Shown: positions 1-6,595 of the stretch, piece after piece
Numbering within the stretch: the first letter of the stretch is position 1
Layout of the letters: each line of letters starts with the position of its first letter
Assembly: GCA_016789125.1 (NCBI GenBank)
Contig: JAEUNU010000140.1
Coordinates: forward strand, 6,338 to 70,337
DNA from: Zoogloea sp.
GTDB lineage: Bacteria > Pseudomonadota > Gammaproteobacteria > Burkholderiales > Rhodocyclaceae
Length of the DNA: 64,000 bases
Reading direction: 5' to 3'
Position numbers and translations under genes: made by a program
The notes under the pieces: model-generated
What the model was told of the DNA's origin: nothing
The model's input: only the letters and a program-made list of their open reading frames with translations
Databases searched by the model: none

Positions 1-1424
1 TGGCCCTCATCACGGCGGTGCTCACCGCCTACCGGCTGTGGGTGATCCAGCACCTGGGCATCGACCTCTACGTGGACGAGGTCCAGTACTGGACCTGGTC
101 CCAGGCCCTAGCCTGGGGCTACTTCTCGAAGCCGCCGGTGATCGCCGCGCTGATCGCCGCCAGCACCGCGCTGCTCGGCAACGGCCTCGTCGCCATCAAG
201 CTGCCTTCGCTGCTGCTCTACCCGGCCACCACCGCGGTGCTCTACGCGCTGGGCACCAGGCTGTATTCGGCGCGGGTCGGCTTCTGGGCCGGGCTGGGCT
301 TCATGTCGATGCCGCTGGTGGCGGCCCTCGGGCTGTTTGTGTCCACCGACGCGCCGCTGCTCCTGTGCTGGTCACTGGCCCTGCTCTTCCTGTTGCGGGC
401 GCTGGAGCGCGACGGCTGGGCCGACTGGCTGGCCTGCGGCGCGGTGATCGGCGTCGGGCTGCTGTCGAAGTACACCATGGCGGCCTTCCTGCCCTCAGCC
501 CTCCTGCTGGTCGTGCTCGACGCCAGCCACCGCCGCTGGCTGGCCCGCCCCCAGCCCTGGGTGGCGGTGCTGCTGGCCCTCGCCATCCTCAGCCCCAACC
601 TCTACTGGAACTGGGCCCACGACTTCCCCACCTTCCGCCACACAGCCGAGATCACCCGCGTCGGCCACGGCGAACGCGGCTGGCACCCGGTGCAGCTGGG
701 CGAGTTCATCGGCGCCCAGTGGCTGTCCTTCGGCCCGCTGGCAGGCGCCCTGCTGGCCTGGGCCCTGGCCCGCAGCCTGGAGCTGTGGCGCGACCGGGCC
801 CATCGCACCCTGCTCATCTTCATCCTGCCGCTGCTGCTCCTGGTGAGCGCCCAGGCCCTCACCGGGCGGGCCAATGGCAACTGGGCGGCGCCGGTCTTCG
901 TGGCCGCCTGCCTGCTGGTGCCGGCAGTGTTCCTGGCCCGGCAACGGGGCTGGGTGGTGGCCGGAGTGGTCGTCAACCTGGTGGCCGCGCTGGGTGCCTA
1001 CCACTGGCCCGACATCGCCCGCGCCACCGGCACCGAGCTCACCGCCAGAAACGACCCCTACAAGCGCGCCCGCGGCTGGCTGAACCTCGCCGACGGCGTC
1101 GGCCACTACACCGCCGCTCACCCCGAAGCGATCCTGGTGGCCGAAGACCGCGAGCTCATCGCCCAGCTGCTCTACCGCCTGAAGCCCACCCAGTACGCCG
1201 CCTGGAACCCCGACGGCCTGCCCCGCGACCACTACGAACTCACGACCAGCCTCGCCGACAAGCAAGGCCGCGACGTGATCTATGTAAGCCGCAAGCCCGC
1301 CATCCCCGACATCGCCGCGCGCTTCGAATCCAGTGAAACCCTCGGCAAGGTGGTCGTGCCGATCCACCGGGATTTCCGGCGCGAGGTGCATGTGTTTCTG
1401 CTGAAGGGCTTCAAGGGGTATTGA
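1..1424 (+). CDS. Glycosyltransferase family 39 (ArnT/PMT-like GT-C membrane protein), probably 5'-truncated by the window edge
   Basis: ORF 18..1424 stays open upstream to the window start. Motifs DEVQYWTWSQ..WGYFSKPP, TDAPL and SKYT, plus many hydrophobic helices. Confidence 0.85.
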   Translation, partial: ALITAVLTAYRLWVIQHLGIDLYVDEVQYWTWSQALAWGYFSKPPVIAALIAASTALLGNGLVAIKLPSLLLYPATTAVLYALGTRLYSARVGFWAGLGFMSMPLVAALGLFVSTDAPLLLCWSLALLFLLRALERDGWADWLACGAVIGVGLLSKYTMAAFLPSALLLVVLDASHRRWLARPQPWVAVLLALAILSPNLYWNWAHDFPTFRHTAEITRVGHGERGWHPVQLGEFIGAQWLSFGPLAGALLAWALARSLELWRDRAHRTLLIFILPLLLLVSAQALTGRANGNWAAPVFVAACLLVPAVFLARQRGWVVAGVVVNLVAALGAYHWPDIARATGTELTARNDPYKRARGWLNLADGVGHYTAAHPEAILVAEDRELIAQLLYRLKPTQYAAWNPDGLPRDHYELTTSLADKQGRDVIYVSRKPAIPDIAARFESSETLGKVVVPIHRDFRREVHVFLLKGFKGY

Positions 1425-1433
1425 AGCCGGGGG

Positions 1434-1680
1434 AGCAGATTTGCGCTTCCAGGTAGCACCATTGGTCCGGCGGCGAGCAATGGTGCTACCTGTACCCACC
1501 GACGTTGCACCAAAAAGCAGCGACGTTGGTGCTTCACACCACAACCATTGCACAAAAAAGCAGCAACGTTGCTACCTCGGACCACCAACGTTGCACAAAA
1601 AAGCAGCGACGATGGTGCTTGAGGGTAGCAGGCTTGCTCGACGGAGCTGCATCGTTGCTGTCCGGAGTAGCAATGTTGGT
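1434..1680. repeat. Phased array of 12 degenerate palindromic 12-mers (consensus AGCAACGTTGCT) separated by 9-10 bp
   Basis: Units start at 1434,1455,1476,1498,1519,1541,1562,1584,1605,1627,1648,1669. The centre is a 43-bp higher-order repeat (ttgcac at 1505,1548,1591). There is a perfect 15-bp inverted repeat at 1450-1464/1478-1492. Confidence 0.85.
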
Positions 1681-1705
1681 ATTGGGGGGATCAACGGATT
1701 TCTGG

Positions 1706-1772
1706 TCGCTGATGGGGACCGACCGCTTTCCGTTGTTTAGCGTTTCGGTGGCCGGGTCGCGTTCCACGGCCG
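1706..1772 (+). repeat. Partial (5' part) third copy of the structured element
   Basis: tcgctgatggggaccgaccgctttccgttg...tggccgggtc resembles 1799-1851 (tcgctgatggagaccagtggctttccgcta...tggccgggtc). Confidence 0.7.
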
Positions 1773-1793
1773 GGTTTGCACACCCGGTTGTTT

Positions 1794-2074
1794 GCTGCTC
1801 GCTGATGGAGACCAGTGGCTTTCCGCTATCTGGCGTTGCATTGGCCGGGTCCCGCCCCGGCGGGCGGCCTACTTTCTTGCGTCGCCAAGAAAGTAGGCAA
1901 AGAAGGCGACCCCGCTTCACCGGTCGTCGGCGTCGCCGACGACTCCCCTGCGCTGCTCGCATCGGGCGGCCGGCGCAGAACTCGCCCGCTTCGCGGGCTC
2001 AAACAGCTGCGCCGGAAAGCCCCGCCCGCTGCTGCGCTGCTCGGCGGCTCAGAAGGGGCTTTTCGGAATCACCG
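1794..2074 (+). repeat. ~280-bp multi-hairpin repeat element, copy A (MITE-like or structured ncRNA)
   Basis: Stems gcctactttcttg/caagaaagtaggc, gtcgtcggc/gccgacgac, gcccgc/gcgggc and ccggcgcag/ctgcgccgg. Homologous to the reverse complement of 2162-2457. Confidence 0.85.
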
Positions 2075-2161
2075 TGCGTTGCAGGGCGAGTATGGTTGAT
2101 CGACGCAAAGGCAGAAAACCTGGTCGATTCGCTGATTGCACAAGACGTTTCAGTAAAGGCT

Positions 2162-2457
2162 CGGTGTGTGCTGAAAGCCCCTTCCGAGCCGCCGAGCAGC
2201 GGAACAACAGGCGGAGAAGTCCGGCGCAACTGTCTGAGCGGGCGCAACCCGCGAGTTCTGCGCCGGCCGCCTGTTGTGAGCAGTGCAGGGGAGTCGTCTG
2301 ATCAAGCTACGCTTGAGCAGACGACCGGCTCGGCGGGGTCGCCTTTCTTGCCTCCTTCTTTGGCGACGCAAAGAAGGAGGCCGGCCGCCGGGCCGGGACC
2401 CGGCCAATGTGGCGCAAACCAACGGAAAGCGGTTGGTCTCCATCAACGAACAGCAGC
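2162..2457 (-). repeat. ~295-bp multi-hairpin repeat element, copy B (inverted relative to A)
   Basis: Reverse complement aligns with 1794-2074, with the same stems carrying compensatory substitutions. Confidence 0.85.
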
Positions 2458-2475
2458 CATCGGGGAAAAGTATCG

Positions 2476-3861
2476 TCAGCCCTCCCCCGGCAATGCCCCC
2501 GGCAGCTCATCCAGCTGCGCCGCCTCGATCTTCTGGAAGTGGGCGGTGATCTTGCGCGACGAGGTCTGCACCTCAGCCACGTCCTCCCCCGCCTGGCGGA
2601 TGTGGGTGGCGAGCTTCTGCATGCGCTCGTCGAAGCGGTTGAAGTCCTTCGCCAGCTTGCCCAGGGCGTCCTTGATCACGTGGATCTGCTTGCGCGTCTC
2701 CACGTCCTTCAGCACCGCGCGGGCGGTGTTGAGCACCGCCATCAGGGTGGTCGGCGAGACGATCCACACCCGGCGCGTCATCGCGTAGGCCACCACCTCC
2801 GGGTGGTAGGCGTGGATCTCGGCGAACACCGCCTCGGCGGGGATGAACATCACCGCACCATCCGAGGTCACGTCGGGCAGAATGTACTTGCCGGCGATCG
2901 CGTCCACGTGCTTCTTCACGTCGCCGCGGAAGGCGCCCTGGGCGGCGCGGCGCTCCAGCTCGCCGGTGTCGGCGGCGAACATGCGGTGGTAGTTCTCGAG
3001 GGGGAACTTGGAGTCGACGATGACCATGCCGGTGGGCTCCGGCAGGCGCAGCACGCAGTCGGCGCGGGTGCCGTTGGGCAGGGTGTATTGAAAGTCGAAG
3101 GCCTCGGGCGGCAGCGCGTTGCGCACCAGGGCCTCCAGCTGCACCTCGCCGAAGGCGCCGCGGGCGCGCTTGTCGCCCAGCAGCTCCTGCAGGCTGACCA
3201 CGTTGGTGGTGAGATCGCCGATCTTCTTCTGGGCCTCGTCGATGGTGGCTAGGCGAGTCATCACGCTGGTGAAGGTCTCGTTGGTCTTGCGGAAGCCTTC
3301 GTCGAGACGCTGGTTAACGTGCCCGCTGATCGCCTCCAGGCGCTCGCCCACCGTGCGATTGAGGGCCTCGAAGCTGCCCGAGAGCTGCTCGGAGGCGCTC
3401 TTGAGGCCGCTCTGCAGCAGCTCCCGGTCGGCACGGGCGTGCTCGGAGAGGGTCTTGAGGGTCTCGGCGAGCAGGGTGCTGCGCAGCTTCTCCTGGCCGG
3501 CGGCGAAGGCATTCGCCAGCTCGGCGAGGCGCAGCATGGTCTCCTCGCGCTGGGTGCCGAGCTGGCCGACGAGCGCCAGGTGCAGCTGCTGCATGGCCTG
3601 GCGGGAGGCGGCCTGTTCCGCATCGAGGCGGTCGCGCAGGTTGTCCACCTCGCCGGCCACCAGGTCGATGACACGGTCGCTGCCGGCGGTGGTGGCGGTC
3701 TGGATGTCCCGCAGCAGGCCCAGCTGCAGCTGGGCGAACTGCTCATCCACGCGGCGGCCCAGACGGCCGAGCTGAAGCGCCAGCCAGACGACGGCGGCGA
3801 GGGTGACGGCAAGGGCGGCGAGAAGCCAGGGCAGCAGGCTGGAAGCGGATTCGGGGTTCAT
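2476..3861 (-). CDS. rmuC: DNA recombination protein RmuC
   Basis: N-terminal TM helix, coiled coil, RGAFGEVQLE, DSKFPLENY and AVMFIPAEAVF motifs. Confidence 0.92.
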   Translation of the reverse strand: MNPESASSLLPWLLAALAVTLAAVVWLALQLGRLGRRVDEQFAQLQLGLLRDIQTATTAGSDRVIDLVAGEVDNLRDRLDAEQAASRQAMQQLHLALVGQLGTQREETMLRLAELANAFAAGQEKLRSTLLAETLKTLSEHARADRELLQSGLKSASEQLSGSFEALNRTVGERLEAISGHVNQRLDEGFRKTNETFTSVMTRLATIDEAQKKIGDLTTNVVSLQELLGDKRARGAFGEVQLEALVRNALPPEAFDFQYTLPNGTRADCVLRLPEPTGMVIVDSKFPLENYHRMFAADTGELERRAAQGAFRGDVKKHVDAIAGKYILPDVTSDGAVMFIPAEAVFAEIHAYHPEVVAYAMTRRVWIVSPTTLMAVLNTARAVLKDVETRKQIHVIKDALGKLAKDFNRFDERMQKLATHIRQAGEDVAEVQTSSRKITAHFQKIEAAQLDELPGALPGEG

Positions 3862-6379: not shown

Positions 6380-6382
6380 TTT

Positions 6383-6408
6383 GGGGAGTGGGAAGTGGGG
6401 AGTGGGGG
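6383..6408 (+). repeat. G-rich heptamer tandem repeat (GGGAGTG-like), G-quadruplex motif
   Basis: ggggagtgggaagtggggagtggggg. Confidence 0.7.
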
Positions 6409-6549: not shown

Positions 6550-6595
6550 CCCCCCCACTACCCATTTCCCACTACCCACTACCTACGTCCCACAA
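6550..6595 (-). repeat. Heptamer tandem repeat (CCCACTA-like, about 6 units; G-rich on the minus strand), inverted relative to 6383-6408
   Basis: cccacta cccattt cccacta cccacta cctacgt cccacaa. Confidence 0.75.

What the first reader, a model, noticed from the sequence alone, without database searches (positions are those of the whole stretch)
1434..1701. Helically phased array of 12 palindromic 12-mers (AGCAACGTTGCT) at 21/22-bp spacing
Seen: starting 10 bp after the GT39 stop, the units are agcagatttgcg(1434), agcaccattggt(1455), agcaatggtgct(1476), accgacgttgca(1498), agcgacgttggt(1519), acaaccattgca(1541), agcaacgttgct(1562), accaacgttgca(1584), agcgacgatggt(1605), agcaggcttgct(1627), tgcatcgttgct(1648), agcaatgttggt(1669), with a possible decayed 13th at 1690. 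The spacing is always 21 or 22 bp although most 9-10-bp linkers differ. The 21/22 alternation breaks any reading frame. A-tract linkers (caaaaaagc-like) recur at 43 bp. Inference: about 2 helical turns per unit puts every dyad on one face of the DNA, as in iteron or centromere-type arrays bound cooperatively by a dimeric protein. It could instead be a transcribed repeat/short-spacer RNA array. No Rep, ParB, Cas or Nop-domain gene lies in the window, so any cognate factor would act in trans.
Basis: partly seen in the sequence, partly recalled or inferred. Interest (0 to 1): 0.78.

Follow-up and report, generated by a model that had tools for sequence, protein, structure and literature searches.

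The report
Orphan phased DNA array, unknown partner
This row of twelve near-palindromes spaced two DNA turns apart is one of dozens of similarly spaced arrays scattered through this bacterium's genome, and the same kind of array sits beside an uncharacterised helical-protein gene, so it is likely a stand-alone docking site for that predicted dimer in a system I could not find described.

Summary
The array is real: 12 units at 1434-1680, seven 21-bp and four 22-bp steps, though only one unit is a perfect palindrome. It is not unique. This genome holds about 45 non-coding arrays with a 21-bp period in roughly 20 motif classes; 11-12 lie beside genes of three unnamed helical families, the rest are orphans, often right after a stop codon. 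The window's class is the one found beside gene P0001 (contig C77) and its 84%-identical relative. Across 86 genes of that family, 77 have an adjacent array. In 33 congeneric genomes, clustered arrays of three tested classes occurred only where the gene family occurs. Units are swapped between species and length changes by 21, 43 or 86 bp, so phase is kept. P0001 has no family or fold match and is predicted to be an elongated two-fold homodimer with basic tails; the tail column co-varies most with motif class. Best reading: a DNA lattice on which dimers line up. Binding and cellular role are untested, and one complete relative keeps such orphans without a close P0001 copy.

The parts
1434..1680 (.). 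Array of 12 quasi-palindromic 12-mers at 21/22-bp steps (orphan array of the P0001-linked motif class)
1498..1620 (.). Central 43-bp module (two units plus A-tract linker) repeated about 2.7 times; the module that is gained or lost in close strains
1450..1492 (.). Units 2 and 3 in inverted orientation, an 18-bp inverted repeat (potential hairpin)
1690..1701 (.). Possible decayed 13th unit; weak, not counted
3..1424 (+). Flanking host gene, PMT_2/GT39-like glycosyltransferase (5' end outside window); array starts 10 bp after its stop. Bystander.
1702..2465 (.). Inverted pair of a separate dispersed ~330-bp repeat with an extra partial copy; neighbour, not part of the array
2476..3861 (-). Flanking host gene rmuC, convergent with the GT39 gene. 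Bystander.

Best explanation
The array is a gene-less copy of a 21-bp-period DNA element that elsewhere sits next to an unnamed ~155-residue helical-protein gene (P0001 family), and it likely serves as a lattice on which that predicted rod-shaped homodimer lines up along double-stranded DNA. Shown: the array, its class match to the P0001-linked array, the gene-array pairing across the family, phase-keeping length changes, and two alternating two-fold axes per period in the arrays. Predicted: an all-helical, two-fold, antiparallel dimer. Inferred: one dimer per 21 bp, dimer and dimer-dimer axes lying on the two DNA axes 10.5 bp apart, and the basic C-terminal tails reading the core, so that each paralog lineage has its own motif class. 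Inferred more weakly: about a dozen dimers coat ~250 bp just behind stop codons, most often between converging genes, and act as a local architectural or transcription-insulating block; new orphans arise by copying of arrays in trans by a host or mobile-element enzyme, since the protein shows no catalytic fold.
For: Same motif and period at other loci of this genome, two of them behind P0001-family genes. A 21-nt unit-plus-linker module of the window array occurs in 21 of 278 held loci, which collapse to the GT39-rmuC arrays of G000/G007/G009, the P0001-linked array and the array behind L034 (84% identical to P0001). Behind 80 family genes base autocorrelation peaks at lag 21 (0.423) and 42 (0.405) against 0.26-0.30 at other lags; upstream lag 21 is 0.302. 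66 of 86 genes have an array downstream, 11 of 86 upstream, none both. Family copy number is 0-13 in 33 congeners; the window-class pair pattern hit 3 of 33 and another class 12 of 33, none among the 10 family-free genomes. Five genes linked to that second class are one subfamily, 79-89% identical. Length changes are +43, +86, -43 in close strains and one exact 21-bp indel at an orthologous orphan. In 71 arrays a second, unselected dyad peak lies 10.5 bp from the main one (3.03 of 7 vs about 1.8). No sense/antisense folding bias (35 of 61 and 6 of 10). Homodimer score 0.83 vs best control 0.00, runs agree in at least 93% of contacts, pLDDT at least 87; the mark was reached by 20 of 30 true pairs and 1 of 23 monomers in calibration. 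Tail column 145 ranks first for co-variation with motif, and 82-86% identical proteins with different motifs differ in that tail. 13 of 35 arrays lie in convergent gaps vs 48 of 413 long gaps.
Against: No binding was tested and no known DNA-binding fold was matched. G009 (100% complete) keeps two orphans of the window's class but its best P0001 match is only 54% identical; G007 (82% complete) 46%, so these orphans persist without an obvious cognate gene. Overall motif-protein correlation is weak (rho 0.18); the column ranking uses non-independent pairs, had no permutation test, other columns (52, 40, 25, 105, 73, 97) also scored 7-10, and the tail pattern was read after the fact. Gene and array could co-occur because both collect in permissive genomes and insertion hotspots. 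Two unrelated helical families also carry such arrays, so the period is not specific to this protein. The arrays fold well as single strands (z -5.8 and -4.2 for the two strands here). 9 of 86 genes had no array above the cut-off, and the 80 outside loci are the best 80 of 344, biased to near relatives.
Confidence: 0.55

Rival explanations
1. Host-factor site: the arrays are wrap or docking sites for a general host protein (gyrase or a nucleoid protein), as reported for E. coli REPs at gene 3' ends, and the helical genes only hitchhike with them.
For: Orphans are enriched in convergent gaps and follow stop codons, like REPs (PMC3733652, passages). Period is shared by about 20 motif classes and three gene families. 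Orphans persist in G009 without a close P0001 copy.
Against: 77 of 86 family genes have an adjacent array; tested classes are missing from the 10 family-free congeners, which must have the general host proteins; motif class follows paralog lineage.
Confidence: 0.15
2. Selfish or neutral repeat: arrays are minisatellite-like by-products that spread with a mobile gene-array unit, keep their period through unit-wise slippage and conversion, and have no function at orphan sites such as this one.
For: Patchy 0-13 copy number; the GT39-rmuC gap is an insertion hotspot, 33-93 bp in 7 of 14 measured congeners and holding unrelated inserts in others; slippage of whole units keeps phase by itself; fast unit turnover.
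Against: Slippage does not explain why unrelated motifs share one period and a similar length (median 11 units), the second dyad, or a different-motif array at the same site in G023. Linkers differ while spacing holds. No transposase, terminal repeat or target duplication was seen in the unit; no Y1 transposase in G000 (81% complete).
Confidence: 0.17
3. Structured RNA array: the array is transcribed (here as a 3' extension of the GT39 gene), folds into hairpins or is cut into ~21/43-nt pieces, and the helical protein binds the RNA.
For: Strong predicted folding (median z -4.3 for the first 40 arrays against mononucleotide shuffles); position just behind stop codons; array sequence is present in contigs of RNA-labelled runs.
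Against: No strand bias in folding; arrays lie beyond the gene's terminator-like hairpin in many loci and upstream of the gene in 11; units flip orientation freely; no Rfam match at curated score; no promoter-like site in 1300-2600. The contigs cannot show transcription.
Confidence: 0.1
4. Coding repeat: the 21-nt period is seven codons and encodes heptad peptides.
For: Pure 21-nt arrays in other taxa leave open heptad-repeat frames.
Against: Four of 11 steps here are 22 bp; +43, +86 and -43 changes shift frame; the open frame differs between cases.
Confidence: 0.03

Closest known systems
REP/BIME elements with RAYT transposases (REPtrons) and TIRtrons (PMC3733652, passages read)
   Same: Dispersed extragenic palindromic repeats, mostly downstream of genes and between co-directional or convergent genes; several repeat classes per genome, each with a class-specific gene flanked by its own repeat; patchy abundance.
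   Different: Fixed 21/22-bp lattice of 10-14 units rather than hairpin singles or doublets; no unpaired terminal GTAG/CGTC tag on most classes; partner is a small all-helical protein with no HUH/Y1 match; no Y1 transposase found in G000.
Plasmid centromeres with small centromere-binding proteins (type Ib omega/ParG/pCXC100 ParB, type II ParR; PMC3074162, passages read)
   Same: Array of phased sites next to the gene of a small dimeric protein; extended or superhelical protein-DNA assembly is the working model here.
   Different: Those binders are ribbon-helix-helix dimers with an NTPase partner on plasmids. Here the model has no beta strand, no NTPase gene was seen beside the G000 copies, the family was not found on plasmids or phages, and there are dozens of chromosomal arrays in many motif classes.
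Iterons with Rep initiators (recalled, no paper read)
   Same: Repeat step near two helical turns.
   Different: Iterons are direct repeats at one origin with a Rep gene; these units are quasi-palindromic, flip orientation, are dispersed and have no Rep.
CRISPR, TIGR and type III toxin-antitoxin repeat arrays (recalled)
   Same: Repeat plus variable linker layout; array next to a small gene.
   Different: Linkers are only 6-10 bp, unit orientation is mixed, no Rfam, Cas or other family match, no strand bias.

Membership tests
REP/RAYT | Class-specific HUH/Y1 tyrosine transposase flanked by the repeat | tested here: not met
   Array-linked gene has no Pfam/NCBIfam match; PF01797 absent from G000, control genomes ring 6 of 14 (genome 81% complete)
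REP/RAYT | Dispersed extragenic copies, mostly 3' of genes | tested here: met
REP/RAYT | Unpaired GTAG or CGTC tag at one end of a hairpin unit | tested here: inconclusive
   GTAG overlaps some units of the window's class as part of the palindrome but is missing from most class consensuses; judged by eye
Plasmid centromere (ParABS/ParMRC/TubZRC) | Centromere-binding protein of RHH or HTH type | tested here: inconclusive
   Model is helical without strands; no clear fold match, which does not exclude a family
Plasmid centromere (ParABS/ParMRC/TubZRC) | Adjacent NTPase gene and plasmid or prophage location | tested here: not met
   Neighbours of G000 arrays are varied host genes, read from N-terminal sequence by eye; no P0001 relative in 72,556 plasmids, 50,697 phages or viral contigs
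Iteron origin | Direct repeats in one orientation beside a Rep gene | tested here: not met
   Mixed orientation; flanks are a GT39-like gene and rmuC
CRISPR/TIGR/type III TA RNA arrays | Known repeat RNA family or known effector gene | tested here: not met
   No Rfam hit at curated score in 1300-2600; partner has no Pfam, NCBIfam or PHROG match and only scattered weak PADLOC hits
CRISPR/TIGR/type III TA RNA arrays | Transcript processed into unit-length RNAs | not testable with these tools
   Only assembled contigs were available
DUF6261 (array-linked family of an earlier AI note) | Pfam DUF6261 match | tested here: not met
   0 of 136 aligned members match it

The most novel reading that the evidence does not exclude
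A widespread, undescribed chromosomal address system: families of small rod-shaped helical dimers polymerise on 21-bp DNA lattices, each paralog reading its own motif through a short basic tail, with dozens of gene-less lattices seeded behind host genes. One genome would carry about 20 orthogonal protein-DNA codes on a common scaffold, reprogrammable by changing a few tail residues.
Probability: 0.35. Interest if true: 0.88.

Novelty: categorically new. Interest (0 to 1): 0.7.

Why it matters
It links a large unnamed protein family (3039 clusters at 50% identity with E up to 0.001) to a specific, testable DNA element and reveals a class of dispersed repeats that repeat finders mostly miss because motifs differ while the period is fixed. 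If the dimers do coat these lattices with tail-encoded specificity, it is a new mode of bacterial DNA recognition and chromosome organisation, and a source of compact orthogonal DNA-binding scaffolds. The window's array with P0001 is a ready first test pair.

Tried and rejected
Rfam: two sub-threshold hits outside the array. Family libraries: nothing for P0001 in Pfam, NCBIfam, PHROGs; PADLOC only weak scattered hits in 1-3 of 34 members; no PDB sequence hit under E 0.1; Atlas gave only unnamed clusters, one auto-named 'methyl-accepting chemotaxis protein' without Pfam support. Fold searches: no Foldseek hit at E 0.001 in PDB or BFVD, best VIA Z 5.3 on a helical hairpin; second family best Z 5.5; these show neither a new fold nor absence of relatives. 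Homology between the first and second gene family: not detected. Transcription: four runs were contigs only and covered all bins, so no conclusion. A motif-free A-tract pair pattern hit 4 of 33 genomes, one of them family-free, and was uninformative. A third class pattern hit 17 of 33 genomes; clustered hits were all in family-bearing genomes, but five family-free genomes had single hits, four sharing one sequence; the script meant to check them for periodicity failed, so they are unverified. A metagenome scan gave 47 stretches; I read 3, all 21-bp repeats in other-looking contexts with no P0001-like ORF recognised in the held flank, so that pattern is not specific to this system. An early reading that no residue tracks the motif was revised. 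Rows dropped: from 48 non-coding peaks I removed 4 by eye and added back C14, giving 45; C178:14852 and C193 remain doubtful. Literature: eight searches listed nothing describing this pairing; the library lacks most subscription journals.

Full report
Observation. The 12 units are at the stated places, 1434-1680, with seven 21-bp and four 22-bp steps; matches to the consensus run from 7 to 12 of 12 and only the unit at 1562 is a perfect palindrome; the 13th is weak. The centre is a 43-bp module with an A-tract linker repeated about 2.7 times. Ten of 26 window matches within three mismatches fall in 226 bp. The array starts 10 bp after the stop of a PMT_2/GT39-like gene and is followed by a separate inverted pair of a dispersed repeat and then the convergent rmuC gene.

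It is one of many. A matrix from the window's units finds further chains of 13, 13, 7 and 5 units in the same genome against 27 pairs and 3 triples of background; a retrained scan finds 7 arrays and none in the reversed genome. A motif-free scan for excess autocorrelation at 21/42/43 bp gave 48 non-coding peaks; after removing 4 by eye and adding 1 back, 45 remain, in 22 k-mer clusters, some probably over-split and two members doubtful. Of 35 with both neighbours called, 13 lie in convergent gaps and 3 in divergent gaps, against 48 and 150 of 413 long gaps (my own simple gene caller). Many begin within tens of bases of a stop codon.

The partner gene. Two arrays related to the window's motif lie just behind genes of a ~155-residue family (P0001 on C77, and a 3' remnant on C202). 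The genome has 10 family hits; five intact copies and the remnant have a clear array behind them, with a different motif each, one is doubtful, and two divergent copies have none. The family is large (3039 clusters at E up to 0.001), unnamed and was not found on plasmids, phages or viral contigs. For the 80 best of 344 genome loci (record titles name Zoogloea, Accumulibacter, Aquabacterium, Lysobacter and others) autocorrelation behind the stop peaks at lags 21 and 42. With six G000 genes added, 66 of 86 have an array downstream, 11 upstream, none both, 9 neither. The window's array belongs to the P0001 lineage: a unit-plus-linker module occurs only in the GT39-rmuC arrays of three genomes, the P0001-linked array and the array behind the 84%-identical L034 gene. 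Two further unnamed families also have adjacent arrays; the second is predicted to have the same outline of one long helix and a basic tail but shows no detectable homology.

Co-occurrence. Copy number in 33 congeners is 0-13, with 10 at zero. The window-class pair pattern hits 3 of 33 and another class 12 of 33 (three of these are single unverified hits), all family-bearing; the reversed-pattern controls are zero. That second class is orphan-only in G000 but lies behind a family gene in five other genomes, and those five proteins are 79-89% identical. A third class gave clustered hits only in family-bearing genomes and single unverified hits in five family-free ones. Kin are not independent, so these are tallies, not tests. 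Against strict dependence: G009 is complete, lacks a close P0001 copy (best 54%) and keeps two orphans of this class.

History of this site. Among 14 congeners where the gap could be measured, 7 have 33-93 bp, G009 has the array, G023 has a different-motif array, and the rest have other inserts; G007 has a 14-unit version right after the same stop. The three versions share their first units, then exchange modules while staying in register. At a second orthologous orphan the only indel inside the array is exactly 21 bp. Contigs from close strains differ by +43 and +86 bp (both with flanking gene sequence) and -43 bp (low depth, flank unknown). These shifts break reading frames and keep phase.

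DNA or RNA. The array folds well on both strands, as inverted units must. Across 71 family arrays there is no sense-strand advantage, and each period carries a second two-fold axis 10.5 bp from the first (the first peak is chosen as the maximum, the second is not). Arrays occur on either side of the gene and often beyond a terminator-like hairpin. No Rfam family matches. Transcription could not be judged.

The protein. The model is confident (pLDDT 87), all-helical, with a 57-residue helix and a disordered basic tail, and has no clear structural match. A homodimer is supported: 0.83 against 0.00 for the best of three controls, with cross-chain contacts 21-21 and 80-108/112 that imply a two-fold, antiparallel rod (20 of 30 true pairs and 1 of 23 monomers reach the mark; a model, not a measurement). 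A chain of two-fold dimers has two alternating axes, as the DNA does (inference). Motif similarity rises with protein identity (0.10 below 50%, 0.38 at 80-90%, 0.71 above 90%; rho 0.18) and the column that best predicts shared motif among distant pairs is 145, in the tail (74 arrays, no permutation test). Proteins 82-86% identical but with different motifs differ in that tail. Tails with Gly-Arg, as in P0001, tend to go with AT-rich cores, which recalls AT-hook arms (recalled, read after the fact).

Mechanism. Most likely the array is a double-stranded lattice for these dimers, one per two turns, with tail-encoded preference; the window's copy would be served in trans. The cellular role is the weakest step; position suggests a local block or organiser at gene ends. 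How orphans spread is inferred, not shown: no transposase is in the unit and no Y1 transposase was found in the genome.

Known systems and novelty. It is distributed like REP/RAYT (PMC3733652, passages) and would work like a centromere-binder array (PMC3074162, passages), but fails defining tests of both. I read the abstract and two results sections of a 2026 preprint on non-coding element mining (10.64898/2026.09.22.753630); those parts do not describe it and its supplements were not seen. Other papers were seen as search listings only. Eight searches found no description. Unchecked AI notes from this scan report similar gene-plus-array pairs in other genomes; they are leads, not support. What this locus adds is the orphan side: many motif classes on one period in one genome, each tied to a paralog lineage. 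The script machine was lost, so the motif-free scan of congeners and a tree-aware co-variation test were not done.

Verdict. Observation confirmed; interpretation partly supported; categorically new as a system, function unproven; interest 0.70.

Noticed in passing
window 1702-2465: Inverted pair of a dispersed ~330-bp structured repeat (arms 149 and 143 nt, about 80% complementary) with many copies in this genome and congeners; several lie near phased arrays. Possibly like the long TIR repeats of PMC3733652; no Rfam match at curated score.
   Followed up: partly
L133:918-1295, L134:1135-1509, L135:1599-1973, L136:1528-1896: Second unnamed family (~124 aa, predicted 54-residue helix plus basic tail) with a 21-bp array upstream of each of four genes; no detectable homology to P0001; present in 24 of 33 congeners and missing from 8 of the 10 that lack the first family.
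   Followed up: partly
L137:1962-2642 (P0270): Third unnamed gene (226 aa, no Pfam match) with its own 21-bp array upstream; related motif seen in an orphan by eye.
   Followed up: no
G000:C246:144-452 and C202:150-305 (L029, L033): Two halves of what looks like one P0001-family gene, each ending at insertion-sequence-like repeats at a contig end; the 3' half still has its array.
   Followed up: no
G000:C178:17349-18348 (L031, L032): Two divergent, acidic tandem paralogs of the P0001 family without an array or basic tail; similar low-scoring pairs in G007 and G009.
   Followed up: no
L014:1190-1500 (G023): A different-motif array with 21-bp steps (read by eye) fills the same GT39-rmuC gap with no gene beside it.
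   Followed up: partly
window 6382-6407 and 6554-6593: Heptamer runs (TGGGGAG, CCCACTA) between genes; unrelated to the array.
   Followed up: no
L235, L247, L263: 21-bp repeat rows with a similar core in metagenome contigs of other base composition; some leave heptad-repeat open frames that could be mis-called as coiled-coil genes.
   Followed up: partly
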